A stretch of 64,000 nt of DNA from Candidatus Heimdallarchaeum aukensis (GCA_021513695.1 CP084166.1:1920001-1984000), one strand, 5' to 3'; counted from the stretch's first letter, positions 5,876 through 31,241 are shown. Translations and numbers: made by a program. Notes: a model not told the origin generated them from the sequence alone.

Positions 5876-6101
5876 TATAAAACACTGCCCAATTTGTAAA
5901 AAGGAAAAAAATGGAGAAAACACTTTTTGCGAAATTCATGAAAAAGCCAAAAAGTCACTTTTAGAAGGATACGAACTCTGGCTTAAAGCGTATGGGATAT
6001 TATCATGGGAAGCATACTTAAAAGAACTTTCAGCTTTAGATGAAAGAGTCGGAAAAACTGTAAAAGAAGTTATAGACTATGAAAGATTCTTCAAGAAGTA
6101 A
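5856..6101 (+). CDS. small zinc-ribbon protein (hypothetical)
   Basis: 81 aa containing HCPICKK...FCEIH. It overlaps the topA stop by 20 nt. Confidence 0.35.
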   Translation: MIKMKNSIKHCPICKKEKNGENTFCEIHEKAKKSLLEGYELWLKAYGILSWEAYLKELSALDERVGKTVKEVIDYERFFKK

Positions 6102-6107
6102 AAGATG

Positions 6108-6344
6108 TTAAGAAGAGAAGAGAGCAATATGAATCTGATCTTTCTCTAGAACGCCCTCAAATTTCTTTTTACCAATAATTATAGTAGGTAAAACGGTTAC
6201 TGATGCTTCCATGTCTTCGTGTTCAACGTTTTTAAGTTTCAATTCAAACAAGTCTCCATATTCATCAATAACTTCCTTTAATTTCTTTTCAGCAATAGAA
6301 CAATATAAGCAATCGTTGGATGTGAATAGAATAATCTCGTTCAT
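6108..6344 (-). CDS. glutaredoxin/thioredoxin-fold small redox protein
   Basis: 78 aa with an N-terminal CLYC (CxxC) motif in a beta-alpha-beta context. Confidence 0.55.
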   Translation of the reverse strand: MNEIILFTSNDCLYCSIAEKKLKEVIDEYGDLFELKLKNVEHEDMEASVTVLPTIIIGKKKFEGVLEKDQIHIALFSS

Positions 6345-6496
6345 CGGTGTATAAATAAAATTCTTAAAAACTTAAAAACTGAAACAAAAAAAGTCGACAA
6401 GTGACTAATAGTCGGAAAATTTTTTGATATTTTTTAGAAACAAAATTAATATATATAAAATATAAATATGGACAATATAGAGATAATTCGTCGAGT

Positions 6497-7441
6497 GTGA
6501 AATACATGAAAGTATTAGAAGTGAATGAAGATGGTTCATTAACCGAACTTCCTGATTTACAATTAAAGCCAGAAAGCGTTATCATTATCGTAGATGAAGT
6601 AGATAAAAGGATGTGGTTATGGAAGGGCCAAAATTGTCAAATAAGAAAGAAGTTTATTGGAAGTAGAGCACTATCAGATTTAAGGAAAAAAGAATATGGA
6701 TTCGCATATATTCCTCAAACATGCGATCAAGGAGAGGAAACAGCAGAATTTGTTGCTATGCTTCAAAAAATAGGAAAAGAGGATCTAGTTAGTAGTGAAG
6801 TCTTGAGAAAGGCAAAAGAACTCATGGAAAGACAAAGTAGAATAAATGTTTTTGATGAAGTTGAGGAAGAACCTCATAAATTAACTGCATCAATTAGCGA
6901 TGAGGAAGTAGCTAGAATAAAAGATCGACCAGCACAAGTTCCTACATCACAATTGCCAGCAAAGATGGCCAAAATGGGCGCACCAGGAAATAGACCTACA
7001 CCTTCGATCTTATCAGCACTGGACGCGCTAGAAGAGGAAGGGGAACAAGGACCGCCTATTCCAAAAACAAAACAAGTGAGTCAGGAAGTAGAAATCTCAA
7101 CCAAAAGAGCTATGCAAGAACAAGCGGACGATTTACTCAAAAAATCTTTTGAAATTTTGAAAGATTTAGGTGTTCCAAAGGGATTTTATAGAGATCTTAT
7201 AATTATAGGAACAAACGTATATACAGAATCATATGATGGTTCATTCGAAGAATTAGATGAACCACCAGAAGGAGTATTCTTTTCTAGATCTCATGTGCCA
7301 AGAATGATATGTGAAAATGGAATTGTAAGAGCGATAGAATTCCTTAAACCAGAGGAAGGAGCAGAATTAAGCGAGGAAGACGAAAAAATAGCTCAAGATA
7401 TCGAAGATATCTTAAGTATGTTTGAGATAGACATAGGATAA
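6497..7441 (+). CDS. hypothetical acidic protein
   Basis: 314 aa, glutamate-rich; I recognise no family. Confidence 0.4.
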   Translation: MKYMKVLEVNEDGSLTELPDLQLKPESVIIIVDEVDKRMWLWKGQNCQIRKKFIGSRALSDLRKKEYGFAYIPQTCDQGEETAEFVAMLQKIGKEDLVSSEVLRKAKELMERQSRINVFDEVEEEPHKLTASISDEEVARIKDRPAQVPTSQLPAKMAKMGAPGNRPTPSILSALDALEEEGEQGPPIPKTKQVSQEVEISTKRAMQEQADDLLKKSFEILKDLGVPKGFYRDLIIIGTNVYTESYDGSFEELDEPPEGVFFSRSHVPRMICENGIVRAIEFLKPEEGAELSEEDEKIAQDIEDILSMFEIDIG

Positions 7442-7480
7442 AAAAGAACAAATTAAAGGTAAAGTAGATAGGGTGATAGA

Positions 7481-7771
7481 GTGGATATAAAAGACTACGC
7501 CTCTCTACAAATTCTTTTTCACCCTTCAATTCCAATTAATCAAAAAAAAATAGAGAAAAGAGTGAAAAAGGGTCTAACGATAGGAGAAGCATTAATTGAA
7601 ACACTTAAGGAAAGTGAAGAAGCATTTAATTATTTAGTAAAGAACGAAAAAATACGCCCTGGATTTTTAATCTTAAATAACAAAATAGAACTAAAGACAA
7701 CAGGAAAACTGGGAAGTAAAATAGAGGGAGATTTAACTATAAGAATAATTCCAATTTCACACGGCGGATAA
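7481..7771 (+). CDS. MoaD/ThiS/SAMP-like ubiquitin-fold protein ending in Gly-Gly
   Basis: 96 aa with the C-terminus ...IPISHGG immediately before the stop, as in beta-grasp sulfur carriers and archaeal SAMP modifiers. Confidence 0.55.
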   Translation: MDIKDYASLQILFHPSIPINQKKIEKRVKKGLTIGEALIETLKESEEAFNYLVKNEKIRPGFLILNNKIELKTTGKLGSKIEGDLTIRIIPISHGG

Positions 7772-7891
7772 GATATAGATAAAATAATCCAAGAAGAATT
7801 ATAAGAAAAAGAAAAAAAGATTTCAAATAAATTTTAGATTAAAAGAGAAGAAATAAGCAAAAAGAGAGAAGAGATTATTTAACCGTCTTTT

Positions 7892-8623
7892 TTAGTCTCT
7901 TTTTTTTGTTTCTTTTTTAGAGTCCTTTTTTGAAGAGAAGAGGTCCAACAAACTGTCGATCCATAAGGAGACAGTGTTTAAAATTGGAACATTCTGCCCT
8001 TCAATTATAAAAGCAAACAAAATTGTACCAAAAAAGCCAATAGGCTTACCTAACACGTCATGAGACCACATCCAAGCAGCATCATAGGTAGTACCATAAT
8101 CAACCATGAGTGTGACAGTCATACCAACGATTAAAGCTATACGCAAAAAATTAGTTAGAACAAGAGCCAAGATAGTAAAACTAGTGGCTTTAACTTTATC
8201 CCAAGGCTTGGCGGGAGTAACAATAATAAGAGCCATGAGTAAAGCACCAGCTTGCATGGCAGTACAAGCGCGAACAATGGCAAAACGCTTGTTAACAGTA
8301 ATAGCCTTAATAACAGGAGATTGACCATTATGAAAGTCAAACTTAGCAAAAAAGTCGATTATAGAACCAATAAAGGAACCCTCGATAGCAGGGCTAGTGT
8401 CAATAAATAAGCCATCATAACGAACATTGAATTGGTAAAGCTTCAAGATAGAAAAAGCAGTACTATAAGTAATCTCTTCTAAGAAATAATAGTCAGGAAC
8501 AACATACAATAAAAAAGTTAAGAGTATAACAACGATAAAGGAATAAAGAGAATAAACATGCTTGGATCTACCTTCAAGGCGAATTAAATCACGTAAAACT
8601 AAAGGCTCGGTTTCACTATTCAT
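7892..8623 (-). CDS. archaeosortase/exosortase-family membrane protein
   Basis: Polytopic membrane protein of 243 aa. A single conserved-looking Cys sits in IVRACTAMQAG and an N-x-x-R motif in LTNFLRIALIVG, resembling exosortase/archaeosortase catalytic residues. Confidence 0.5.
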   Translation of the reverse strand: MNSETEPLVLRDLIRLEGRSKHVYSLYSFIVVILLTFLLYVVPDYYFLEEITYSTAFSILKLYQFNVRYDGLFIDTSPAIEGSFIGSIIDFFAKFDFHNGQSPVIKAITVNKRFAIVRACTAMQAGALLMALIIVTPAKPWDKVKATSFTILALVLTNFLRIALIVGMTVTLMVDYGTTYDAAWMWSHDVLGKPIGFFGTILFAFIIEGQNVPILNTVSLWIDSLLDLFSSKKDSKKETKKRD

Positions 8624-8879
8624 ATATTATCGAACAACGATGAATATAGGTAGTTAAAAATACTTCGATATTAAAAAGATTATTTGATAAAAGAGTTCGT
8701 TTGCCTTTCTAAAAAGACTCTAAACAACAATTTTTAATAGCTGTTGAGAAATAATAATATTAGTAAGCAATAACAAAGAAACGTTCGTTTGGTTCGACAA
8801 AAAAAGAAAAAAGCCAACGAACGAATAATTTAAAAACGATGCAAAAACAACAAAATTGCAAACAAACGCAGCATCACCT

Positions 8880-8928
8880 CCAATGATAACAAGAACTCTA
8901 AGCGTGAAAAACAGATGAGTTAGAGAAT
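8880..8928 (+). other. pre-16S rRNA processing stem, 5' arm
   Basis: ccaatgataacaagaactctaagcgtgaaaaacagatgagttagagaat is complementary, with G-U wobbles and small bulges, to the segment at 10563..10616 downstream of the 16S gene. Confidence 0.65.
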
Positions 8929-9054
8929 TTTAGGCCAAAAAAAAATTTTGGTAGTACAGAAAAAGCGTGACACTTGGAGTGTGCGTAAAAGTTAATTCAA
9001 GTTTTAAAAAGCGAAAAAGGTAATAACGACCGTACGAAAATCGTCTGAAAAAGA

Positions 9055-10531
<1,477 letters not shown>

Positions 10532-10536
10532 AAGTT

Positions 10537-10558
10537 TGGGGGGCCTCAGGCCCCTCCC
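10537..10558 (+). other. GC-rich hairpin immediately 3' of the 16S gene (ggggggcc-tcag-ggcccctccc)
   Basis: A perfect 7-8 bp G/C stem, the only such structure in the AT-rich flank. It is present in both copies of the direct repeat. Confidence 0.55.
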
Positions 10559-10562
10559 TATT

Positions 10563-10616
10563 ATTCTCTTTATTTACTCTCTGTTTTTCATTGCTTGGAG
10601 TTCTTGTTATCATTGG
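10563..10616 (+). other. pre-16S rRNA processing stem, 3' arm
   Basis: The reverse complement reads ccaatgataacaagaactccaagcaatgaaaaacagag..., matching 8880..8928. Confidence 0.65.
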
Positions 10617-10644
10617 ACTTTTTTATTTGTCTCAACTTTTCTTT

Positions 10645-10980
10645 ATCTCTTCTATTTTTTTCCATCTTTTTCTTTTATTACGTTTTCTCTTTTTTTCTCC
10701 TTTCTCCCTTTTTTCTCTAGGAGGTGATCCTACCTTCTGTTCTCCTACGGCTACTTTCTTGTTACTTTTTTTCTTTTTCCGCGCTTCTACCTTATTTTTG
10801 CAACAACGGGTGGTATGTTCTTTTTCTTTTTCCTTTTCCATTTCCTTTTTTTATCTAAGTATTAGATTTGTGATCTACGTAATTAATTGTATAGTGATTA
10901 GTTCGGTTGATAAAGCTTACAAAAATAGATTTTTCTTCGATTTTTCGATATTTTTTGTTACTTTTCTGATTTAAAGGTAC
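10645..10980 (+). repeat. long polypyrimidine (CT-rich) low-complexity tract
   Basis: The plus strand is almost purine-free over several hundred nt. ORFs called here are composition artefacts. Confidence 0.8.
10719..10820 (-). pseudogene. inverted, degenerate fragment of the 16S 3' terminal region
   Basis: aggaggtgatcc...cctacggctac...cttgttac...ccgcgcttctacc...gcaacaacgggtggtatgttc aligns to the reverse complement of 16S 10392..10531 with an internal deletion and many purine-to-pyrimidine changes. Confidence 0.6.
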
Positions 10981-11324
10981 TAGACTTTGTAATATAAGTC
11001 TTATAAAATCTAGCAAAATACCGAAACAGTAAGCGAGGATTTTAATTTTATTTTAGTTTCAACTACCTAATTCATGGCTCAATGAGTGGTAGGTTCTTCC
11101 TCCCTCCCGGATGGACCTTTCCCGAGAGCAAGATTACAGTACAAAAATTTTGTACAAAAATCGAGTTGATGGAACAATGTCTTCCTTTGGTCAGGTAAAC
11201 TTCTCTCCCTTGTTACTGTGACTGTATGTCTCATCCTAAATTAGCACAAAATATTGTTGTGGTTTTCTCCAATACAGAAATGAATTATTACAACAAGCCG
11301 TTAAATTAGAAAAAAGAATCAGAT

Positions 11325-12152
11325 ATGTTTCATATTAGGGTTACAAGGTTTAATATTTTTAAACAAAGGTTTTTTATACCTAAACAAATATTAATTATTA
11401 GAACATCTTATATTTTAAGCGTGCACACAATGGATTTTGAAGATTCAATTGAAATATGTATGAAAGTAGATAACATTAATTCAGAAATAGATGTTAATAT
11501 ATCAGAAGAAGAAAAAGATAGGATATATTTAGAGGTAATTCAATGGTTGAATGACAATCCAATTCGTTCGTTAAGTTCTGTAAGCGATTTTATGCAACTC
11601 TTGGAAAGTTTATTATGCTTGGAGATTAAAGAAGATGGAAGACTTATATTAAGTACTTCTGCTTACAGTGATCAACAGTTAAGTGAAGGACTTAAGAGAA
11701 ATAAGGATTTCTTTAATAATTTAATTAAGGAATTTCAAAATAATATTGATAAAGAAATAAATAGAGAGTATGAAAACGAAACAGAAGAGGTTCTATTATT
11801 ACGTTTTCTTAATACAGAAGAACAGATTATTGAGGGAATAAATGAAGTATCAAAAGCATTGACAAAATTCTCTTTCAACAGAAAAAGACGTAGATTTACA
11901 AGAATATTAATTGAAGCATTATTTGAATTTTTAGATAGTATTATTCTAATATTCATAAGATGGATTGAAATAAGTGCTAATAGAAACACAAAGAGAGAAA
12001 ATTTGTCTTTAGAATTATTAGAATGGGATATAAACACGTTTAAATCGACCATCTATAATATAAATAGAATTGCACAATTATCTCAAACAAGTATCGAAGA
12101 AGAAGGAAATAAAAATTTAGCAAAGGTCTTTATAGAAATTTTACAACAGTAG
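11325..12152 (+). CDS. hypothetical protein (the true start may be the ATG at 11430)
   Basis: Open frame with protein-like composition. The first 35 codons read like an AT-rich promoter. First gene of the island. Confidence 0.4.
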   Translation: MFHIRVTRFNIFKQRFFIPKQILIIRTSYILSVHTMDFEDSIEICMKVDNINSEIDVNISEEEKDRIYLEVIQWLNDNPIRSLSSVSDFMQLLESLLCLEIKEDGRLILSTSAYSDQQLSEGLKRNKDFFNNLIKEFQNNIDKEINREYENETEEVLLLRFLNTEEQIIEGINEVSKALTKFSFNRKRRRFTRILIEALFEFLDSIILIFIRWIEISANRNTKRENLSLELLEWDINTFKSTIYNINRIAQLSQTSIEEEGNKNLAKVFIEILQQ

Positions 12153-12162
12153 GAGGTTTTTC

Positions 12163-12948
12163 ATGTCTTTAATTTCAATTGGACATGATACATGTATTCT
12201 TTTAGCATACATATATGATGATGGAATTAGAGATGAATTTGAAAATTATCTTGAAATAAGTAATAATATTAACAATAGAAGTTATTCAAAATATTATCAC
12301 TTACTTCTAAAGTCAGTCGTTGATGAGATTAGTGCGGTGATAGGATCTCGTTTAGGTAATATAATTAAAGAAATGTCAAAAAAATTACAAGAAATAATAC
12401 CTGAAAGAACTACATCTTTATCAATGAAACAATTAAGCGAATTCCTTGAATATATGGAAGATCTAGAAACGATTTATCCAAAAGATGCTGGATTAATTAG
12501 ATATATTAAAAGAAATATGTTAGACAAGAAAAAAAATTACTCTTCTTTAATTGATACAGCTTCAAGAAGGAAAAAATTTTCAGAAATGATAAGTCTAAAG
12601 AATAGGTTCGATATTAATTACTTTTCATCACTTTTTGGAACCTACTTTAAATACTATGATCCAACTGATAAGCTAAGAGATACTGAAATTAAGGAAGATT
12701 TTGAAGAGATAATGAAGAAAATCTTTAAAGGTGCAAGAACAAAAAGAAATACTTATGATAAAATTCACATTTACTCATGTTGCGCTTTTATACGGGAAAA
12801 TAGAAATGATAATCTAAAGTTTACGACCTCTGATCAAATACTACTTGAAAACTCTAGATTATTAGAAAAATATTTTGAGATAGTAGATATGCAATCGTTG
12901 GTAAGATTACTTTACACCCACATGGATTCTCTTCCAGAATCTGTTTGA
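12163..12948 (+). CDS. hypothetical protein
   Basis: 261 aa, preceded by a perfect SD, aggaggtttttcATG. I recognise no family. Confidence 0.5.
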   Translation: MSLISIGHDTCILLAYIYDDGIRDEFENYLEISNNINNRSYSKYYHLLLKSVVDEISAVIGSRLGNIIKEMSKKLQEIIPERTTSLSMKQLSEFLEYMEDLETIYPKDAGLIRYIKRNMLDKKKNYSSLIDTASRRKKFSEMISLKNRFDINYFSSLFGTYFKYYDPTDKLRDTEIKEDFEEIMKKIFKGARTKRNTYDKIHIYSCCAFIRENRNDNLKFTTSDQILLENSRLLEKYFEIVDMQSLVRLLYTHMDSLPESV

Positions 12949-13025
12949 CCTAGTTAATATTTTTCATTTTCTTTGATTTTTATACCGTTTACCGTTCTCT
13001 TTAAACCCATGAAGTATGGTTTCTT

Positions 13026-13301
13026 ATGGCAGATAGATGGAAAGATAACCAAGATAACATTTTTGAGCAATTTTTTCTAAAATATTTTGAATTTAGAAAA
13101 AATAGTAATAATAAACAAAATGATGCATTAAATGAAATTTTAGAGTATATTAAACAAAAAGAAAAATCCAGATATTGGGATTTATATTGCTTTCTTCAGT
13201 CAACTCCTGTGAGAAAAGAATCCCCTTATGTTCGCAAGTTTTCAACAAAGCCATTAAATAAAAGATGGCTAATTTATAAATGGAAAAGCTTTTTTTATTA
13301 A
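13026..13301 (+). pseudogene. gene fragment paralogous to an internal segment of the downstream NACHT-LRR gene
   Basis: ADRWKDNQDNIFEQFFLKYFEFRKN...ILEYI compared with IADKWKDSKENNFEKFIIKCLEFRRD...ILDYI. The 17-nt string gaagtatggtttcttat is identical at 13008 and 14986. Confidence 0.55.
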
Positions 13302-13345
13302 TAGCGTAAAAACTAATCTTGTTTTAAAGAAAGGAGTAAAAAACT

Positions 13346-16300
13346 ATGCCTAATAAGAAAAGAATCTTCGTATTTTTTATTATTCTGTTAGTACTTTCTT
13401 TCCTTGTTGGAGCACTACCTGCTTTAGTTTCAGAAGGAATCTTTCATTTAAATAGTACGTTAGTTATCATTCTTGCATTATTAAGCCCAATACTAAGCCC
13501 CTTTATTGAGCTTATTTACAGTAATATTGCAAATATAGTTAAAAAGGCCAACTATAACAGAAAAAGAATCGTTTCAATCTTAGAAGAAAATTATCGCAAT
13601 TTTATTCAACATTTAATTATTCCTTCTGCGAGAGGAAACACAGTTAATGAACTTTTACCTCTCCATTCAATAGAACGAAGAATTATGAGCGTTGAAGATT
13701 TGGAAAAATATGTCGAAAGGGGTGAGAAGAACGTTGATTCTTTTCCTTTTACACAAATTGTAGAAGAATTAAAAGGTTCACCTCCAAGATCACTCTCTTC
13801 TAGCCCCCTAAAATATATTATTACGGGAATCTTGAGAAAAAGAAAAAAAATAAAGAACGAGGGAAAAAGACTTCTCAAATATATTATTACAGGAATTCCC
13901 GGAGTAGGGAAGACTAGTTGTTCTTTTCAACTTGCCCTAAAACAGTTAGAAGCTTTCAATAACAAAGAATCAAATTATCTTCCTCTTTGGTTTGATATAG
14001 GTGAAAGAACTGGAAGAAAACAGCTAGGAAATGGTTTGAAATCATTACGTGATATACTTAAGGATTGTAGTACTCAGGTGTCAAAAGAAGAACAACTTAA
14101 AACCTATCTTGCTTTTCTTGAAGGTAAATCTGTTGATAATGTAGAATTACGTCTTTCTGATGATGATTTTGAAATCTTCTGGATTCTCGATGGATGGAAT
14201 GAAAACCCCATAAATGATATGATTACTTGGTTAAGCAATAGAGATACCATAACTATCTTTTCTAGAATGGGAGGAGAACCTTTAGGCTCATCTTCAATTT
14301 CTTTTGATAAATATACTCTTAGACCTTTTACTGTTCAAGATTCCATCTCTTTTCTAACTCAGTTTAATCATGTCCCTGAAAAATGTGCACGTATTATCGC
14401 TAGTTCACTAGATGAACATTATGGTGAAGAATTTCTTATTCCTTTCTTTCTAAATATTATAGTTTATAACTTATCAATACAAGGGATCAATGATACGGTT
14501 CAAACAATAAATTACTTCAACATCGAGCAGACTACTAAATTTAGTTTTTTAAAAGATTTTTTCTACTCTATACTCGAACGTGATTTTTCAAGTATAAATG
14601 CTCAACGTAAACTTAATGATCGACTAAAAAGACAAATTCTCTCTTGGTTCTCTCAAATTCTCTATTTTATAGTGAAAAAAAACTCTAATGTCCCTTCAAG
14701 GATGATTTTCAGAGAGGAAGATTTGCAAGACGCAATAGATAACGTACGTCCTCCAGAAATTGTGAGAACTGATCCTTTAGAAGTATTGACTGATTTATTA
14801 TTTATAGAAAAAGTACAAGATAACAGAGGGGAACGGACTATTTCTTATAGTTTAGTCCATGAACTATATTTAGACTTTTTTCTAGCTTATGCTATTAGTT
14901 CCTTTTGGGAAAAAAAAGAGAATGAGCCTAAATTTGATAACGATGGTCGAATGTATCTTCAGTGGATGGATAATGAATCTTTCGATGAAGTATGGTTTCT
15001 TATTGCTGATAAATGGAAAGATAGCAAAGAGAATAATTTTGAGAAATTTATTATAAAATGTCTTGAATTTAGAAGAGACAAGAAAGACAATCAAGATCTT
15101 ACACTACAACACATTTTAGACTATATTAGAAATAGAGTACTTTCCTATTCTTTTTTACATCCTAATAAACGAAGTATCTCTTCTCATCATAACATATGTT
15201 TATCTTTAAGACTTTTTCCTGGTGGAATTAAAGAATTAGATTTGAGTGAAACAAAAGTTACAGACATTAGTGCTCTTGTGCACTGCACAAATCTACGATA
15301 CTTAGATTTAAGTGGAACAAAAGTTACAGACATTAGTGCTCTTGTGCACTGCACAAATCTACAATACTTAGATTTAAGTGGAACAGACGTTCAAGACATT
15401 AGTCCTCTTTCGCACTGTCCGAATCTACAAAAAATATATTTAAGTGGAACAGATGTTCAAGACATTCGTCCTCTTTCAAGTTGTCCAAATCTACAAGTGC
15501 TGTATTTACTTGGAACACACGTTCAAGACATTAGTCCTCTTTCAAGTTGTCCAAATCTACAAGTGCTGTATTTACTTGGAACACACGTTCAAGACATTCG
15601 TCCTCTTTCAAGTTGTCCAAATCTACAAGTGCTGTATTTACTTGGAACACACGTTCAAGACATTCGTCCTCTTTCAAGTTGTCCAAATTTACAGAGATTA
15701 CGTTTAAGTGGAACAAAAGTTACAGACATTAGTGTTCTTAAAAACTGTCCGAATCTACAAGAATTAGATTTAAGCGATACAGACGTTCAAGACATTAGTC
15801 CTCTTTCAAGTTGTCTAAATCTACAAGAACTGTACTTACTTGCAACACACGTTCAAGACATTAATCCTCTTTCGCACTGTCCGAAACTACAAGTATTAGA
15901 TTTAAGGGGTACACACGTTCAAGACATTAATCCTCTTTCGCACTGTCCGAAACTACAAGTATTAGATTTACATGGAACAAAAGTTACAGACATTAGTGTT
16001 CTTAAAAACTGTCCGAATCTACAAGAATTAGATTTAAGTGGAACAAAAGTTACAGACATTAATCCTCTTTCAAGTTGTCTAAATCTACAAGCACTGTATT
16101 TAAGTGATACAGACGTTACAGACCTTAATCCTCTTTCAAGTTGTCTAAATCTACAAGCACTGTATTTAAGTGATACAGACGTTACAGACCTTAATCCTCT
16201 TTCAAGTTGTCTAAATCTACAAGCACTGTATTTAAGTGATACAGACGTTACAGACCTTAATCCTCTTTCGCACTGTCCGAAACTACAAGTATTAGATTTA

Positions 16301-16861
16301 CATGGAACAAAAGTTACAGACCTTAATCCTCTTTCAAGTTGTCCGAAACTACAAGTATTAGATTTACATGGAACAGACGTTCAAGACATTAGTCCTCTTG
16401 TAAGCTTACCCCATCTACAATACTTAGTTTTACGTGGAACAGACGTTCAAGACCTTAATCCTCTTTCGCACTGTCCGAAACTACAAGTATTAGATTTACA
16501 TGGAACAGACGTTCAAGACATTAGTCCTCTTGTAAGCTTGCCCCATCTACAATACTTAGATTTAAGTGGAACAGACGTTCACGATATTAGTGCTCTTTCA
16601 AGTTGTCCAAATTTACAGAGATTACGTTTAAGTGAAACAAAAGTTACAGACATTAGTGTTCTTGAAAACTGTCCAAATCTACAAGAATTAGTTTTACGTG
16701 GAATAGAAGGTGAATTTAATATTTCTCCTATCATTCGGCATAGACAATTATTAAATCTTGATTTTGATTCTTCACTACAGTTGCTTTGTCCTCGAGACCT
16801 TCAGGATAGTATTGAAGCTCCTGCTCTTCTCAAGATAAAAGATCAAATACAATTTTTCTAA
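13346..16861 (+). CDS. membrane-anchored NACHT/STAND NTPase with C-terminal leucine-rich repeats (NLR-like protein)
   Basis: Two N-terminal hydrophobic helices. Walker A GIPGVGKTS at about 13892..13918. NACHT-type Walker B FWILDGWNE. Helical middle region. About 22 tandem 22-aa repeats of the form LxxCxNLQxLxLxGTxVxDIxPL. Confidence 0.8.
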   Translation: MPNKKRIFVFFIILLVLSFLVGALPALVSEGIFHLNSTLVIILALLSPILSPFIELIYSNIANIVKKANYNRKRIVSILEENYRNFIQHLIIPSARGNTVNELLPLHSIERRIMSVEDLEKYVERGEKNVDSFPFTQIVEELKGSPPRSLSSSPLKYIITGILRKRKKIKNEGKRLLKYIITGIPGVGKTSCSFQLALKQLEAFNNKESNYLPLWFDIGERTGRKQLGNGLKSLRDILKDCSTQVSKEEQLKTYLAFLEGKSVDNVELRLSDDDFEIFWILDGWNENPINDMITWLSNRDTITIFSRMGGEPLGSSSISFDKYTLRPFTVQDSISFLTQFNHVPEKCARIIASSLDEHYGEEFLIPFFLNIIVYNLSIQGINDTVQTINYFNIEQTTKFSFLKDFFYSILERDFSSINAQRKLNDRLKRQILSWFSQILYFIVKKNSNVPSRMIFREEDLQDAIDNVRPPEIVRTDPLEVLTDLLFIEKVQDNRGERTISYSLVHELYLDFFLAYAISSFWEKKENEPKFDNDGRMYLQWMDNESFDEVWFLIADKWKDSKENNFEKFIIKCLEFRRDKKDNQDLTLQHILDYIRNRVLSYSFLHPNKRSISSHHNICLSLRLFPGGIKELDLSETKVTDISALVHCTNLRYLDLSGTKVTDISALVHCTNLQYLDLSGTDVQDISPLSHCPNLQKIYLSGTDVQDIRPLSSCPNLQVLYLLGTHVQDISPLSSCPNLQVLYLLGTHVQDIRPLSSCPNLQVLYLLGTHVQDIRPLSSCPNLQRLRLSGTKVTDISVLKNCPNLQELDLSDTDVQDISPLSSCLNLQELYLLATHVQDINPLSHCPKLQVLDLRGTHVQDINPLSHCPKLQVLDLHGTKVTDISVLKNCPNLQELDLSGTKVTDINPLSSCLNLQALYLSDTDVTDLNPLSSCLNLQALYLSDTDVTDLNPLSSCLNLQALYLSDTDVTDLNPLSHCPKLQVLDLHGTKVTDLNPLSSCPKLQVLDLHGTDVQDISPLVSLPHLQYLVLRGTDVQDLNPLSHCPKLQVLDLHGTDVQDISPLVSLPHLQYLDLSGTDVHDISALSSCPNLQRLRLSETKVTDISVLENCPNLQELVLRGIEGEFNISPIIRHRQLLNLDFDSSLQLLCPRDLQDSIEAPALLKIKDQIQFF
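15221..16710 (+). repeat. 66-bp tandem repeat array (about 22 units, several adjacent units nearly identical) encoding the LRRs
   Basis: For example, the units at 15469..15534, 15535..15600 and 15601..15666 are near-identical at the nucleotide level. Alternative-frame ORFs in the track repeat the same peptide. Confidence 0.9.
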
Positions 16862-17159
16862 ATTGTTGTATATTAGTTTTTTCTTTTTAGAACACCTATC
16901 TTTCTGAAAAAAATCTATTGTTCAGTTATAGCCATAAATCTTTTTTTATGATTGTAAATTTGAATCTATCTTACACAAAAGATCTACCTGTTAACATCCC
17001 TTATTATTTTAGGTAAGATTCTATCCCTCTTTCATGATACAGTTCTAGATATACTGAATTATCTACAAACTGTCAAAGAGCAATACAACATAACAGTGGT
17101 TACTCTTGCTTTTTAGAAATCTCCCTTCATTAGGAGAAAGGAAAAAAACACGATATTGT

Positions 17160-17289
17160 CCTGCGGATGGATCACCTCCTAAGTTTGGGGGGCCTCAGGC
17201 CCCTCCCTATTATTCTTTTTACTCTCTGTTTTTCATTGCTTGGAGTTCTTGTTATCATTGGACTTTTTTATTTGTCTCAATTTTTCTTT
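17160..17289 (+). repeat. direct repeat copy 2 (last 20 nt of 16S + GC hairpin + processing-stem 3' arm) without an upstream 16S gene
   Basis: Identity with 10511..10644 begins exactly at cctgcggatggatcacctcct. Confidence 0.9.
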
Positions 17290-17496
17290 CTTTCATGTTC
17301 TAACACTTTTAGTCGTGTTTCCACCAAAATCCCTTTTCAACTTTCTAAATTTTTTATTCTCGCTCCCATTCTTCTCCATTTTTCTCCATTTTTCTTTTTT
17401 TTTCTAACTAACCTTTTTCTCCCTCTTCCTTTCTTTCTCTCTCCTTCCCCTTTCTTTTTTGGATAAATTTATGTACTTTTTTTCTCTCTTTTCTGT

Positions 17497-18117
17497 ATGT
17501 TTCTTTCTCCTGACCTTTCTTACCTTGTTGGTGCCTTACGTGACGGTTCTGTTTACTATTATTCTCGGAATAGGTCTTACTATACTCTTTTTTATCAAAA
17601 GTATCGTTCTTGGCTTGTTCACTCTATTGGTAAGCGTATAACTAGATTATTTGGTTTAAACTATTCTATTGACGAATATAAGCGCGGTCATTATCGTCTT
17701 CGCATTTCAAGCAAGCGCTTGTATTCTCTCTGGATTGACCAATTTGGTTTTCCTCGTGAGGGTGAGACTCAGTTACACTGGGATGTTCCTCGTCTTATTT
17801 TAGATAGCGATCTTCTTACTCAGTCTTACTTTCTCCGAGCTTTTTTTGACACTGAGGGTGATGTTTCTCCTTCATCTAGTTCTACTTATTATCTTGGTTT
17901 AAGTCAAAAGAATACTACTGTTTTATATCAACTTAAATCTCTTCTTTCTTCTTTCGATATTAAAACTTCCTCCATTCATTTAGCTGATAAAAAGTCTAAT
18001 ACTTACAGGTTTAGTATTGTTGGCAAGGAAGAAATTTTCAAATTTAGGGACAAGATAGGTTCTGAGCACCCTGTTAAGAAAGAAAAAATTGACCAAATTC
18101 TTCTTTCCAGCGACTAA
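17497..18117 (+). CDS. free-standing LAGLIDADG homing endonuclease (two-motif)
   Basis: Motif 1 LSYLVGALRDGSV and motif 2 YFLRAFFDTEGDVS. 206 aa. Strongly T-rich codon usage (tct, ctt, cgt, ttt) unlike neighbouring genes. Confidence 0.75.
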   Translation: MFLSPDLSYLVGALRDGSVYYYSRNRSYYTLFYQKYRSWLVHSIGKRITRLFGLNYSIDEYKRGHYRLRISSKRLYSLWIDQFGFPREGETQLHWDVPRLILDSDLLTQSYFLRAFFDTEGDVSPSSSSTYYLGLSQKNTTVLYQLKSLLSSFDIKTSSIHLADKKSNTYRFSIVGKEEIFKFRDKIGSEHPVKKEKIDQILLSSD

Positions 18118-18619
18118 ATTATTATTTTTTAATTATCAAGAGCATTAAGGGTTTATTCAGCTTATTTTTGTCTCTTTAGATATGGATTAGCTTTTTCTTT
18201 CTTAGATGGAAGTTGTTTGTTTATAGAATTGCCTTTCCTCCTTCCTTCTCTTTCTTATCCTTTCTTATTTTCTCTTTATTCCTCTTTATTAAGTTTCAAA
18301 TACATATTCATTGTTAGTTTATTCTTTCTAGCCTAATTTATTCATTTTTAGATCCATACCTTTCCTTTTTAGTTAACTTTCTTTTTAGCTATCATATTAC
18401 AGCTATCACTATCAATAATGCTATCGACTATCACTATCAAAGGGAGTGATAACATTAAGAAAATAAAGATAAAGTGAATGAAAAGAAAGGAAAAAATAAG
18501 TAAAAGCAGAAAAAGTAAAAAACGGACATAAGGTAAAAAAAATAGAAGAGTAAGACTTAAGTCAAATACAAAAAAGTTTAAGATAGAATTGTAAAAAAGA
18601 GAATCAAAAGGAAAAATAA

Positions 18620-18715
18620 GACCCTGTAGCTCAGCAGGATAGAGCGCTGGCCTTCTAATCTCAGTTGAGAGAAGCTAGTCAGCGGTCGACGGTTCGAATC
18701 CGCCCAGGGTCGCCA
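18620..18715 (+). tRNA. tRNA-Arg (anticodon TCT) with a 19-nt intron after the anticodon loop (about 18659..18677), CCA encoded
   Basis: Acceptor stem gaccctg/cagggtc; D stem gctc/gagc; anticodon stem ctggc/gtcag with loop cttctaa; T loop ttcgaat. One A-C mismatch in the T stem lowers confidence. Confidence 0.55.
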
Positions 18716-21127
18716 TTACATTTTTAGTTTTCCTATTATTGTTATTATTTCCCCCTTTTTGTCTTTGAATACTTCACTCTCTGCTATTTCTCTTAATTTT
18801 TTCAAGTATTTCTTTACCAATTCGTTTTCTTCTGGTAAGTTTACTTTTTTCTTTTGTACGTTGGGCTTTTTTTCTTTTTCTCCCACCAGTTTAACTTTGT
18901 ATTCTCTTTTTTGTTTTCCTTCTTTCACTCTTATCTTGTTTTGATTAGTCACTTCATATTCTTTTTTTGCATTCTCTTTTCTGTCATTCTCTTTTCTGGC
19001 ATTCGAGAACCCTTTTTCTTTTATCAATTCCACGAATTTTTCTCCTACTTTATTCCACACTTGTTGGTATTCCCACATAATCAGTATTATCAGAGCTATA
19101 TCTTCTTCTTTTCCTTTCAGCATATTTACTCCGTTTATAGACATTCCTTGTTTTATTGCTGTTGATAGACCAGCTCTTTTTTTCAGAATAGACAGTTTTC
19201 CCTCACTTAAATTGTACTTTTCTTTTAGATATTTTATCCAAGCTTCTCTTTTCTCTATCATTCTTGAGTTACCAAAGTCTACGAAAAGTTTTCCTTTTTT
19301 ATCTATCTTAAAATACATTGGTTCGTGCAACAGAACAGGGCTAAAGTTCTTTATATCAACATTTTTCATCAATTCGTTTAATAAATTGAATTTGCAAGTT
19401 ATCAGTGGGCTTTTTCTGTTCTCGCTTACTCTTAAAAGATCTCCCCTTTCGTTTTCTAGTATAACAAACGTGTCTTTTGATATATTTCTTTTTTCGGTTA
19501 TCTTATGTCCTATCCAATTGCCATCTATAGTTCCTACTTTAAATTTGAAAAATTCTGTAACTTTTTTTGCTATTGAAGAATTATTGGCTAATATATTTTC
19601 TATTTCTTCTAAAGAAAGACAGGTAAAATCCACATTTTCTATTTTCTTTATTATTTCTTTGAAGATTTGCTCTGTAAAACTTTTAATATTGTTAATTGTT
19701 TCAATATTTTTACTTTCAGAAATTTTTGTTATTAAAGAGAAACGTTCATTTGTTGGCACTAAATTAAGAACAATTTCGTCGTAAGTTCTAATTGCGTATC
19801 TAGAAGCCCATTTTTCTAAATAAGAGTAATAGTAAAACAGCTCATCTTTGCACCCAATAAATTCTAAACGGTGTTTTGTTTCGCAGCTGCTTAAAACTTC
19901 AAAATCCTTGAATAGCCCCTCTTTTGTAATAATATTATAAAGGACGTCCTGAATCTTGATGATTGTCTCTATAAAACTATATTTATTTTCTAGGTTATAA
20001 ACAAATTTTCTCTTTTTCAGTCTCGTGAGAAGAAGATTATCTATTTTTTTGAAAATATTTTTATTTTCATTTTTTTCTTCAAATGATGGAATCTCAATAA
20101 AATCAAGGTTAATTCTTGGTTGAAGATCAGTTGCTTCAATTCTCACTATAGAGTTATTCTCACTCACTAGATCTATATAATTGACTATATCGTTTGTAAC
20201 TACTAAATATCCTTGAAGGTTTTTTGTTGCTTCAAATGTCCAACCATTTTCAAGTAAAGAAATAAGTTGATGTTGTTTTATTGCTGCATTTAAGATAAGA
20301 TTTATTGTATCAAGATCTAAACCACTTTTTATTAGCGCTTCTTTTAGATCTCCGTTTTTTTCTTTTCTTAGGAAATCTAAGCCAATATCGTGTAGAGAAC
20401 TTCTTCTTTTTCTTATTAACATTCTTACTAGTTCTTTTTTCTCTTTCACTGCCTCATCTAGACTACCTATTTCAGAGTTTATTTTTTCAAAGATTTTAGA
20501 TTTACGTCTGAAATATACGTTATTTGAACCATTAAACTTCAAGTTTATCGTTTTAATTATATATTTCCCTGAAGCATCTCTTGCCAGCAGTAACTGATCA
20601 AATCCATTATTTTTCCTCTTTCCAAATTTACCAAAACATAGAGTCTCTTCTGCTGTTCCTATCAACTCAACAACATATTTTGTTGTTAATGTGCTTAAAA
20701 TATAAATTAACTGAAATCTCTCAACATAAGCTCGTGGATCATTAACAAAAATTACTTCTTCTTTTATTCCTGCTAAAAATAAGATGATTCTAATAAAAGC
20801 TTCTATTTCAATCTCATTAATTGTTCTAAAAAAGTGCTTGTACTTCTTTTCAAATTCCTTTTTTCCTACTTTGCTATAAATTGAACTTTCTATTTCCTTT
20901 ATTATTTTATTTATAAAAATCATAAAGAATAATTTAAGAGATTCTAACTCCAGTCTAGTAATTGAATCCACTCTTAATTTACTTATTTTCTTTAAGTTAT
21001 TTCTTTCTAAATCCAGTTCTTGTTGTTCTTTGAGGAGATGAAATAATTCTGTAATAGTAGAGCAACGCAAAAGATTCCAGATATTTAAATTTGCATTTTT
21101 ATAAACAATTTTTTTCATTATATGCAA
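18716..21127 (-). CDS. large hypothetical protein with a lysine-rich C-terminal tail
   Basis: 803 aa with no recognisable catalytic motif. The C-terminal ~100 aa are K/E-rich. The stop codon abuts the CCA end of tRNA-Arg. Confidence 0.5.
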   Translation of the reverse strand: MHIMKKIVYKNANLNIWNLLRCSTITELFHLLKEQQELDLERNNLKKISKLRVDSITRLELESLKLFFMIFINKIIKEIESSIYSKVGKKEFEKKYKHFFRTINEIEIEAFIRIILFLAGIKEEVIFVNDPRAYVERFQLIYILSTLTTKYVVELIGTAEETLCFGKFGKRKNNGFDQLLLARDASGKYIIKTINLKFNGSNNVYFRRKSKIFEKINSEIGSLDEAVKEKKELVRMLIRKRRSSLHDIGLDFLRKEKNGDLKEALIKSGLDLDTINLILNAAIKQHQLISLLENGWTFEATKNLQGYLVVTNDIVNYIDLVSENNSIVRIEATDLQPRINLDFIEIPSFEEKNENKNIFKKIDNLLLTRLKKRKFVYNLENKYSFIETIIKIQDVLYNIITKEGLFKDFEVLSSCETKHRLEFIGCKDELFYYYSYLEKWASRYAIRTYDEIVLNLVPTNERFSLITKISESKNIETINNIKSFTEQIFKEIIKKIENVDFTCLSLEEIENILANNSSIAKKVTEFFKFKVGTIDGNWIGHKITEKRNISKDTFVILENERGDLLRVSENRKSPLITCKFNLLNELMKNVDIKNFSPVLLHEPMYFKIDKKGKLFVDFGNSRMIEKREAWIKYLKEKYNLSEGKLSILKKRAGLSTAIKQGMSINGVNMLKGKEEDIALIILIMWEYQQVWNKVGEKFVELIKEKGFSNARKENDRKENAKKEYEVTNQNKIRVKEGKQKREYKVKLVGEKEKKPNVQKKKVNLPEENELVKKYLKKLREIAESEVFKDKKGEIITIIGKLKM

Positions 21128-30989: not shown

Positions 30990-31241
30990 CTATTCAGAAT
31001 CGGATGATCCTGTGTGAAATGCATGAAAGAAAAGTCCAAAAAATGCTCCCAATATTGCCAGTATAATAGTCAACACATATACTACATTAAAGTCCATATT
31101 AATCATCTCACCCATTTTATTCCTATTAATAAGCATTTCGTTATCTGGAATACATATCAACTCGATTTTTGTACAAACTAGTTGTACGTCAATCTTGCTC
31201 GCGGAGAAGTCAAAAATTTTAGAAAAAGTAAGTTTAACCAA
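30990..31241 (-). CDS. small membrane protein (hypothetical)
   Basis: 83 aa with one C-terminal hydrophobic helix. Confidence 0.3.
   Translation of the reverse strand: MVKLTFSKIFDFSASKIDVQLVCTKIELICIPDNEMLINRNKMGEMINMDFNVVYVLTIILAILGAFFGLFFHAFHTGSSDSE

What the first reader, a model, noticed from the sequence alone, without database searches (positions are those of the whole stretch)
10511..17289. 6.65-kb island bracketed by 130-134 bp direct repeats made of the 16S rRNA 3' terminus
Repeat copy 1 (10511..10644) comprises the last 20 nt of the 16S gene, the GC hairpin and the 3' processing-stem arm. Copy 2 (17160..17289) repeats this almost exactly, but has no 16S body upstream. Together they flank the island (two unknown ORFs, a gene fragment and the NLR-like gene).

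This is the pattern of attL/attR sites after site-specific integration into the end of a conserved RNA gene, as is usual at tRNA 3' ends. It could alternatively reflect homing-endonuclease-assisted insertion using rRNA-end homology. No integrase is present. The island could excise as a circle by recombination between the repeats.
Basis: seen in the sequence. Interest (0 to 1): 0.75.

Follow-up and report, generated by a model that had tools for sequence, protein, structure and literature searches.

The report
Strain-variable island at 16S rRNA tail
A 6.5-kb block of accessory genes sits just after the only 16S rRNA gene of the Asgard archaeon Candidatus Heimdallarchaeum aukensis, bracketed by two copies of the gene's tail and trailer; a sister strain lacks it exactly at those copies, so it is a real gain-or-loss island, and it was already published in coarser form as the mobile element HeimM2.

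Summary
Window 10511-10644 and 17160-17289 are a 134/130-nt direct repeat (95.5%, E 5e-57), made of the last 21 nt of the 16S gene, a GC hairpin, the 3' arm of the 16S processing stem and an oligo-T run. The att-like reading is largely supported:
- An 81-kb metagenome contig from a closely related strain has one repeat copy and no island, the predicted empty site.
- A second strain carries the island with the same copy-specific markers.
- The sister species H. endolithica has different cargo at the same site, plus two more orphan trailer copies.

No recombinase is encoded in the island, and no circular form was seen. The enzymology, and whether the polymorphism reflects gain or loss, remain open.

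The locus is Wu et al. 2022's 'HeimM2 (8 kbp)', described as lying between the only 16S gene and tRNA-Arg(TCT). New here are the repeat boundaries, the empty site, and the status of the I-DmoI-like LAGLIDADG gene. That gene lies outside the repeat-bounded unit and sits next to the 16S 3' end in five island-free relatives. It therefore looks like a resident of the site, not island cargo. Novelty is modest and interest moderate.

The parts
8879..8934 (+). 5' leader arm of the 16S processing stem, complementary to both repeat copies
   Evidence: blastn inverted matches; cofold with either trailer about -88 to -89 kcal/mol
9054..10531 (+). 16S rRNA gene, full length; the only one in this genome according to the literature
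   Evidence: Rfam RF01959, 1336 bits, model positions 1-1478; PMC8813620
10511..10644 (+). Repeat copy 1 (attL-like): last 21 nt of 16S, GC hairpin, 3' processing-stem arm, oligo-T run
   Evidence: identical in strain L004
10718..10820 (-). Degenerate inverted copy of the 16S 3' end (base of helix 44, helix 45, anti-SD sequence), with an exact 13-mer GGATCACCTCCTA
   Evidence: (I1); a counterpart follows trailer copy A in H. endolithica
10818..11170 (+). Non-coding left arm of the island, homologous (72%) to the DNA after trailer copy A in H. endolithica; contains the palindrome GTACAAAAATTTTGTAC at 11139-11161
   Evidence: no support for an RNA structure
11325..12152 (+). ORF1, unknown function; the likely true start is M36 at 11430, giving 240 aa
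   Evidence: no family hit; three homologues of 239-244 aa at 35-50% identity
12163..12948 (+). ORF2 (K9W45_08665), unknown function
   Evidence: no family hit; AF2 model unusable, pLDDT 39; name
13009..13301 (+). Decayed fragment paralogous to an internal part of the LRR gene
   Evidence: D3 repeat at 76% nt identity; tblastn 42-44% aa identity
13346..16861 (+). 1171-aa protein: two N-terminal hydrophobic helices, P-loop NTPase, about 25 LRRs of 22 aa (66-nt tandem repeats at 15165-16842); this is the 'internalin-like LRR peptide' of HeimM2
   Evidence: Pfam LRR_4 1.4e-102; nSTAND3 only 0.0047, below threshold
16862..17159 (+). Non-coding right end of the island
   Evidence: no ORF and no homologue in H. 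endolithica
17160..17289 (+). Repeat copy 2 (attR-like), with no 16S body upstream; the empty-site strain carries this marker type
17497..18117 (+). I-DmoI-like monomeric LAGLIDADG homing endonuclease (K9W45_08675), outside the repeat-bounded unit
   Evidence: Pfam LAGLIDADG_3 8.6e-13; both motifs invariant in 9 homologues; AF2 pLDDT 95.5 and Foldseek match to I-DmoI, E 6e-11; present in the island-free strain L136
18620..18715 (+). tRNA-Arg(TCT) with intron; orthology with H. endolithica resumes at 18197

Best explanation
The segment between the repeats (about 6.5 kb: non-coding left arm, ORF1, ORF2, a decayed LRR-gene fragment and a P-loop + LRR gene) is the variable core of the published element HeimM2 of Candidatus Heimdallarchaeum aukensis. 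It lies in the trailer of the single 16S rRNA gene.

The genome gains or loses it by reciprocal recombination across a block of about 130 nt: the 16S tail, a hairpin, the processing-stem 3' arm and an oligo-T run. In the Campbell-type model, a circular form carrying one copy of this block recombines with the chromosomal copy. Copy 1 then keeps the 16S gene and its processing stem complete. Copy 2 is left as an orphan in front of the resident LAGLIDADG gene and tRNA-Arg. Recombination between the two copies removes the island and restores a single copy.

Shown here:
- the repeat itself;
- an intact 16S gene and processing stem at the left junction;
- presence/absence between strains exactly at the repeats;
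- reuse of the same site by other modules in the sister species.

Inferred: a circular intermediate and the enzyme. The island encodes no recombinase. The reaction must therefore use host homologous recombination over 130 nt, a recombinase supplied in trans, or repair of breaks made by the neighbouring homing endonuclease.
For: Repeat: 95.5% over 134 nt, E 4.6e-57.

Empty site: L136 (JGI 3300033148, 81,460-bp contig), reverse-complemented, aligns to window 4644-10644 at 99.05% and then to 17160-19494 at 99.66%. The two alignments overlap by 130 nt, which means one repeat copy and no island. That single copy has a private SNP 2 nt after the 16S end, linked to the copy-2-type deletion. It is therefore a separate haplotype and not a collapsed assembly.

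Occupied site in a second dataset: L004 (JGI 3300033149, 7274 bp) is colinear with 10419-17696 at 99.4% and has the same copy-specific indel and C/T marker. Logan unitigs of SRR15988954 break exactly 30 nt before the C/T marker of each copy.

Sister species: H. endolithica (CP084167.1) has the 16S trailer plus two orphan trailer copies (L131 about 20415-20551 and 17717-17787). All share an invariant 44-nt stem-arm core. Their left boundaries differ but their right boundary is common. Copy A is followed by an inverted 16S tail and a left arm homologous to the aukensis island, at 71.6% identity against 78-96% for eight orthologous intergenic regions.

Both trailers pair equally well with the leader.

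[quoted passage not shown] Its LRR gene is matched by a CRISPR spacer, and HeimV2 is at the same site in the other species (PMC8813620). The window is identified as H. aukensis.
Against: No integrase, transposase or other recombinase is present in the island. ORF1 and ORF2 have no recognisable fold or family.

No circular junction or free copy was seen, and there are no relatives in IMG/VR.

Island GC equals the host GC.

The direction of change is unresolved. In 540 nt next to the repeat, the island-free strain is closer to PM71 than the second island-bearing strain is. This suggests loss in L136 rather than recent gain in PM71.

The left arm occurs at the equivalent place in the sister species, so part of the 'island' could be old resident DNA.

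The core of the left arm also occurs elsewhere in the genome (window 31165-31187).
Confidence: 0.75

Rival explanations
1. The published reading: the whole 8-kb interval from 16S to tRNA-Arg is one mobile element, and its own LAGLIDADG endonuclease, co-opted from rRNA introns, drives site-specific insertion.
For: PMC8813620 section 10. Between the two species the variable interval does run from the trailer end to window 18197, which includes the endonuclease gene. H. endolithica has no annotated homologue. The enzyme looks active: both motifs and both acidic residues are invariant, and the fold matches I-DmoI.
Against: The endonuclease gene lies outside the repeats and is present, 99.5% identical, in the strain that lacks the island. 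In five other Heimdall-group contigs its homologue sits 110-290 nt after a 16S 3' end with no island and with different downstream genes. Its divergence from the L127 homologue (64% aa) falls within the range of neighbouring orthologues (55-85%), which fits vertical residence at the site. H. endolithica acquired trailer-flanked modules without the endonuclease.
Confidence: 0.1
2. Endonuclease-cassette homing made the repeat. The island DNA was already downstream of the 16S gene. A cassette consisting of the 16S tail, trailer and LAGLIDADG gene was then copied in from another allele by incomplete double-strand-break repair. This created copy 2. Recombination between the copies later deleted the intervening DNA in some strains.
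For: Copy 1 has the 4-nt state shared with all three H. endolithica copies, while copy 2 and the empty-site strain share the derived deletion. The left arm occurs next to a trailer copy in both species. The SNP pattern hints that the island-free state is derived. Several different modules all begin within a few nt of the same trailer end, as expected for a fixed cleavage point.
Against: The endonuclease appears long resident next to the 16S gene across genera, with conserved neighbours in L127. It does not look like a recent arrival. Orphan trailer copies A and B in H. endolithica have no endonuclease beside them. The left arm is more diverged between species (71.6%, 44 gaps) than any of eight orthologous intergenic regions, which argues against simple shared ancestry. 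The C/T marker points the opposite way to the indel marker.
Confidence: 0.12
3. It is an artefact or a relic: either a misassembly that inserted a plasmid or second locus at a collapsed repeat, or the leftover tail of a second, degraded rRNA operon with no mobility.
For: A 130-nt repeat can confuse short-read assemblers. A third, degenerate 16S tail nearby shows that rRNA-end fragments do accumulate here.
Against: The genome was closed with Nanopore plus Illumina reads and has a single 16S gene. An independent JGI contig spans both junctions in a different strain. Copy 2 has a sharp left edge with no further 16S homology. Presence/absence falls exactly at the repeats.
Confidence: 0.03

Closest known systems
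HeimM2, Heimdallarchaeal mobile element 2 (Wu et al. 2022, Nat Microbiol, PMC8813620)
   Same: Same organism and locus. The interval between the only 16S gene and tRNA-Arg(TCT) is 8.09 kb here. It holds an internalin-like LRR gene and a homing-endonuclease homologue. The protein names match Ca. H. aukensis.
   Different: The paper's main text does not mention direct repeats or att sites, and it treats the endonuclease as part of the element and as its integration tool. Here the strain-variable unit is the 6.5 kb between two 16S-tail/trailer repeats. The endonuclease lies outside that unit and is present in the island-free strain and in five island-free relatives.
Integrative genomic islands and proviruses at the 3' ends of tRNA or tmRNA genes (attL/attR repeats that rebuild the RNA gene)
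   Same: A direct repeat covers the 3' part of a structural RNA gene, and the gene is left intact. A related strain has the empty site. The sister species has an array of successively displaced repeat copies, with a common boundary at the functional end of the RNA unit.
   Different: The target is a 16S rRNA tail and its processing-stem trailer, not a tRNA. No integrase is encoded, there is no compositional signature, and no excised circle was observed.
I-DmoI and other archaeal rRNA-intron LAGLIDADG homing endonucleases
   Same: The neighbouring ORF has two LAGLIDADG motifs with conserved acidic residues and an I-DmoI-like fold (TM 0.69-0.80), and it is associated with an rRNA gene.
   Different: It is free-standing in the 16S downstream spacer, not inside an intron or intein; Rfam finds no intron. 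Its target site is unknown.
R2 and other rDNA-specific insertion elements of eukaryotes
   Same: Accessory DNA uses a conserved rRNA-gene sequence as a safe and reliable landing site.
   Different: Those elements are retrotransposons or transposons that encode their own enzymes and interrupt the rRNA gene. Here the gene is preserved and no element-encoded enzyme exists.

Membership tests
HeimM2 (Wu et al. 2022) | Lies between the only 16S rRNA gene and tRNA-Arg(TCT) of Ca. Heimdallarchaeum, about 8 kb | tested here: met
   The 16S gene ends at 10531 and tRNA-Arg(TCT) starts at 18620, an interval of 8.09 kb. The proteins are named Ca. H. aukensis K9W45_08665/08675.
HeimM2 (Wu et al. 2022) | Encodes an LRR repeat protein and a homing-endonuclease homologue | tested here: met
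   Pfam LRR_4 1.4e-102 and LAGLIDADG_3 8.6e-13
HeimM2 (Wu et al. 2022) | LRR gene matched by a Heimdallarchaeum CRISPR spacer | not testable with these tools
   Taken from PMC8813620.
tRNA/tmRNA-type integrative island | Direct repeats at both ends, one overlapping the 3' end of a structural RNA gene that stays intact | tested here: met
   full-length Rfam 16S match; the leader-trailer stem is preserved
tRNA/tmRNA-type integrative island | An unoccupied site with a single repeat copy in a close relative | tested here: met
   L136
tRNA/tmRNA-type integrative island | Element-encoded tyrosine or serine recombinase next to an att site | tested here: not met
   No hit in Pfam, PHROGs, NCBIfam or PADLOC for any island ORF. 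The ORF2 model is uninformative.
tRNA/tmRNA-type integrative island | Excised circular form with an attP junction | not testable with these tools
   Raw reads cannot be searched. No free copy was found in IMG/VR.
tRNA/tmRNA-type integrative island | Foreign base composition | tested here: not met
   Island GC is 0.27-0.34, against 0.24-0.39 for the non-rRNA part of the window
LAGLIDADG homing endonuclease (monomeric, I-DmoI type) | Two LAGLIDADG motifs, each ending in an acidic residue followed by Gly | tested here: met
   YLVGALRDGS and FLRxFFDxEGD are invariant in 9 homologues
LAGLIDADG homing endonuclease (monomeric, I-DmoI type) | Alpha-beta-beta-alpha-beta-beta-alpha double-domain fold | tested here: met
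   AF2 pLDDT 95.5; Foldseek match to I-DmoI, E 6e-11, TM 0.69-0.80
LAGLIDADG homing endonuclease (monomeric, I-DmoI type) | Encoded inside an intron or intein, and cleaves the element-free allele | tested here: not met
   It is free-standing in the spacer after the 16S trailer, and no intron family is detected. Cleavage cannot be tested here.
NLR-like STAND NTPase with LRR sensor | NACHT/STAND NTPase domain | tested here: inconclusive
   Walker A (GIPGVGKTS) and an ILDGWNE Walker-B-like motif are visible in the sequence. The best Pfam hit is only nSTAND3, 0.0047, 17 bits, below the cut-off. PADLOC gives 0.0085.
NLR-like STAND NTPase with LRR sensor | C-terminal leucine-rich repeats | tested here: met
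   15 LRR_4 stretches; 66-nt tandem repeat in about 21-25 copies
Transposon with target-site duplication | Short target-site duplication, terminal inverted repeats and a transposase | tested here: not met
   The repeat is 130 nt, the ends have no terminal inverted repeats, and there is no transposase

The most novel reading that the evidence does not exclude
The 16S trailer of Heimdallarchaeaceae may be a dedicated capture site kept open by a vertically inherited, free-standing I-DmoI-like endonuclease. Breaks at the functional end of the rRNA unit would be repaired using DNA that carries a copy of the processing-stem arm. In this way integrase-less modules (defence-like LRR genes, IbrA/B genes, the giant-gene element HeimV2) would be stacked behind the single 16S gene, each leaving an orphan trailer copy. 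This would be an endonuclease-driven, recombinase-free analogue of a tRNA integration hot spot.
Probability: 0.2. Interest if true: 0.7.

Novelty: already known. Interest (0 to 1): 0.42.

Why it matters
Structural RNA genes are the classic landing sites for mobile DNA, but a 16S rRNA gene, and the only copy in the genome, is an unusual and risky target. This locus shows how the risk is avoided: the duplicated block rebuilds the last 21 nt of 16S, the processing-stem arm and the terminator.

The work sharpens a published Asgard mobile element in three ways. It gives exact boundaries, provides a natural empty site, and separates the homing endonuclease from the cargo. It also points to the 16S trailer as a reusable hot spot in two species.

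The practical consequences are modest: better annotation of Asgard mobile elements, a defined substrate for testing an archaeal free-standing LAGLIDADG enzyme, and a caution for 16S-adjacent binning and assembly.

Tried and rejected
1. An exact search for the trailer in JGI metagenome contigs found nothing, although a JGI contig that carries it exists. That collection is therefore incomplete for this sample.
It returned 120 loci from Woesearchaeota, Thermoplasmatota and others. Only L027 was of use, showing a similar trailer in a Heimdallarchaeota MAG with no endonuclease.
3. The structure prediction for ORF2 without homologues gave pLDDT 39 and was not searched further. ORF1 has only three distant homologues, and their contexts could not be retrieved.
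4. The conserved left arm was tested as a possible non-coding RNA. It has no Rfam match, the fold z-score is -1.4, and there is no covariation. Rejected.
5. IMG/VR searches for the trailer core, ORF1, ORF2 and the endonuclease were all negative.
6. Synteny through a 74%-identical sortase orthologue was uninformative, because the 16S gene is not adjacent in that genome.
7. Literature searches for 16S-targeted integration found no precedent in the held library.
8. I considered a bulge-helix-bulge explanation for the 4-nt indel. The indel lies in an internal loop beside a 4-bp helix, but no canonical motif could be assigned.

Full report
**Observation**

The window is low-GC archaeal DNA (about 30% GC). 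It holds one full-length 16S rRNA gene at 9054-10531 and no 23S gene. The repeat finder and blastn confirm a direct repeat, 10511-10644 against 17160-17289. Identity is 95.5% over 134 columns, E is 4.6e-57, and the spacing is 6649 nt.

The alignment shows a sharp left edge at CCTGCGG, 21 nt before the 16S end. It then runs through 58 identical nt, a 4-nt indel with one mismatch, 66 identical nt and one C/T difference (10636/17281), after which similarity decays. The block contains four elements:
- the 16S tail;
- the hairpin GGGGGGCCTCAGGCCCC;
- the 3' arm of the processing stem, complementary to leader 8879-8934;
- an oligo-T run.

Either copy pairs with the leader equally well, at -88.1 and -89.0 kcal/mol, and the indel falls in an internal loop. 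Apart from a gene-fragment paralogue, this is the only long dispersed repeat in the 64 kb.

**Contents of the island**

Between the copies lie:
- a non-coding left arm (10645-11324);
- ORF1 and ORF2, with no hit in Pfam, PHROGs, NCBIfam or PADLOC;
- a decayed fragment of an LRR-gene paralogue;
- a 1171-aa protein with a P-loop and about 25 LRRs of 22 aa.

No recombinase is present. GC does not differ from the background.

One is a degenerate, inverted copy of the 16S 3' end at 10718-10820, which includes an exact GGATCACCTCCTA. The other is a LAGLIDADG ORF at 17497-18117, directly after copy 2, followed by an intron-containing tRNA-Arg(TCT) at 18620-18715.

**Identity of the locus**

The LAGLIDADG protein, ORF2 and the LRR protein are 100% identical to proteins of Candidatus Heimdallarchaeum aukensis, whose genome is a 3.08-Mb contig.

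Wu et al. 2022 (PMC8813620) closed this genome with Nanopore and Illumina reads. They describe 'HeimM2 (8 kbp)', which encodes an internalin-like LRR peptide and a homing-endonuclease homologue. [quoted passage not shown] A CRISPR spacer matches its LRR gene, and they propose that the endonuclease was co-opted for integration. They also report that HeimV2 (44 kb) occupies the same site in H. endolithica.

The interval here is 8.09 kb, so the element itself is already known. The paper's main text does not mention direct repeats or att sites.

**Is the arrangement real?**

An independent JGI contig (L004, sample 3300033149, 7274 bp) is colinear with 10419-17696 at 99.4%. It carries the same copy-specific indel and C/T marker, plus a private extra G in copy 2. 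Logan unitigs of SRR15988954 start exactly 30 nt before the C/T marker of each copy, as expected at k = 31 when both copies are in the sample. Together with long-read closure of the genome, this excludes an assembly artefact.

**The empty site**

An 81,460-bp JGI contig (L136, sample 3300033148) contains the sortase gene, the 16S gene, one trailer, the LAGLIDADG gene (99.5% aa identity) and tRNA-Arg, with no island. Reverse-complemented, it aligns to window 4644-10644 (99.05%) and to 17160-19494 (99.66%). The two alignments overlap by 130 nt, which is a single repeat copy.

That copy links the 16S body to a private A-to-C change 2 nt after the gene end and to the copy-2-type deletion and T marker. 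This combination does not exist in the sequenced strain PM71. L136 is therefore a distinct haplotype and not a collapsed repeat.

Polarity is not settled. In 540 nt next to the repeat, L004 has about 9 private differences, L136 about 4 and PM71 one. This weakly suggests that the island-free state arose by loss, through recombination between the copies to the left of the indel.

**The sister species**

In H. endolithica (CP084167.1; L133 and L131) the 16S trailer is followed by HeimV2 genes. Two further orphan trailer copies lie between HeimV2 and tRNA-Arg, at L131 about 20415-20551 and 17717-17787. The middle 28.8 kb of this interval was not retrievable.

All five trailer copies in the two species share an invariant 44-nt core, TCTGTTTTTCATTGCTTGGAGTTCTTGTTATCATTGGACTTTTT. 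Their left boundaries differ: inside the 16S gene, inside the hairpin, or after the hairpin. Their right boundary is common to within a few nt, at the end of the trailer. tRNA-type att arrays show the same picture, with the shared boundary at the functional end of the RNA unit.

Copy A is followed by an inverted 16S-tail remnant and about 370 nt homologous to the aukensis left arm, but the cargo differs (IbrA/IbrB-like genes). The left arms are 71.6% identical with 44 gaps, whereas eight orthologous intergenic regions are 78-96% identical. This fits related elements better than simple orthology, though only weakly.

**The homing endonuclease**

The ORF has both LAGLIDADG motifs, with the acidic residue and glycine invariant across nine homologues. 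A confident model (pLDDT 95.5) is closest to I-DmoI, with E 6e-11 and TM 0.69-0.80.

In every context that could be retrieved, the homologue lies 110-290 nt downstream of a 16S 3' end and trailer. These contexts are L126, L127, L128/L129 and L130, at 55-64% aa identity. In each the gene is on the same strand as the 16S gene, has no island, and is followed by different genes.

Its divergence from the L127 homologue (64%) lies within the range of neighbouring orthologues (55-85%). Together with its presence in the island-free strain L136, this makes it a long-term resident of the 16S flank and not cargo of the 6.5-kb island.

It may still matter mechanistically. All the different modules start at almost the same point after the trailer, which could be a cleavage site. 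Against an essential role, H. endolithica has trailer-flanked modules but no annotated homologue.

**Mechanism**

The best-supported account is reciprocal recombination across the 130-nt block: Campbell-type insertion of a circle carrying one copy, and deletion by recombination between the two copies. The duplicated block rebuilds everything the rRNA unit needs at its 3' end.

What catalyses the reaction is inferred, not shown. The candidates are host homologous recombination, a recombinase acting in trans, or repair of endonuclease-induced breaks.

A rival account is that the repeat arose when a cassette of 16S tail, trailer and endonuclease gene was copied in downstream of pre-existing DNA. 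The indel marker and the hint of loss favour this rival. The long residence of the endonuclease, the endonuclease-free orphan copies in H. endolithica and the C/T marker count against it.

**Verdict**

The att-like interpretation is largely right but incomplete, and the element is already in the literature as HeimM2.

New details from this analysis are the exact repeat boundaries, a natural empty site, the array of orphan trailers in the sister species, and the reassignment of the endonuclease as a resident of the 16S flank. Interest is moderate.

Noticed in passing
window 17497-18117; L126 291-890; L127 806-1417; L128 166-780; L130 168-767; L136 14862-15482: A family of free-standing I-DmoI-like LAGLIDADG genes lies directly downstream of the 16S rRNA 3' end and trailer in every retrievable context across Heimdall-group archaea. 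The genes after it differ between contexts. This looks like a 16S-flank-specific homing endonuclease that is not housed in an intron.
   Followed up: partly
window 10718-10820 (-); L131 about 20385-20411: A degenerate inverted copy of the 16S 3' end (base of helix 44, helix 45, anti-SD) sits about 70 nt after repeat copy 1, and a shorter counterpart follows trailer copy A in H. endolithica. On the + strand it could pair with the 16S tail (arms of 52 nt, 75% complementary). Its function or origin is unknown.
   Followed up: partly
window 11139-11161 and 31165-31187 (-); L131 17265-17287: A motif of about 55 nt contains the palindrome GTACAAAAATTTTGTAC followed by CGAGTTGAT. It recurs in the island left arm, after both orphan trailers of H. 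endolithica, and once elsewhere in the window. It may be a protein-binding or promoter element; there is no support for an RNA structure.
   Followed up: partly
window about 19482-19494; L136 11804-13255; L131 11804-13255: A 1.85-kb TnpB (Cas12f1-like_TNB) insertion splits the 803-aa gene at the same position in the island-free aukensis strain and in H. endolithica. It is absent in PM71 and in the endolithica-like contig L137. This is either an insertion recurring at the same target or a precise loss.
   Followed up: no
window 13009-13301 vs 14985-15137: A 91-codon fragment upstream of the LRR gene is a decayed paralogue (76% nt, about 42% aa) of an internal part of that gene. This suggests cargo turnover inside the island.
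   Followed up: partly
L004 2928-6442 vs window 13346-16861: In the second island-bearing strain the LRR gene is called as 962 + 217 aa instead of 1171 aa. This points to a frameshift or repeat-number change in the gene the literature reports as CRISPR-targeted.
   Followed up: no
window 8871-8883: The 5' leader carries an anti-SD-like GCATCACCTCCAA at the outer edge of the processing-stem arm, and the same is found in H. endolithica at L133 9728-9740.
   Followed up: no
L138, reverse complement 1-252 (equivalent to window upstream of 18502): An ENA contig of an endolithica-like strain diverges into unrelated GC-rich DNA 118 nt upstream of tRNA-Arg. This is either another breakpoint in the variable interval or a chimeric contig.
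   Followed up: no
window 7892-8623 (-): The gene divergent from the 16S promoter is a 'heimdallarchaeosortase' (exosortase/archaeosortase family). It has 64 homologues, and its adjacency to the 16S gene is not conserved in a 74%-identical relative (L139).
   Followed up: partly
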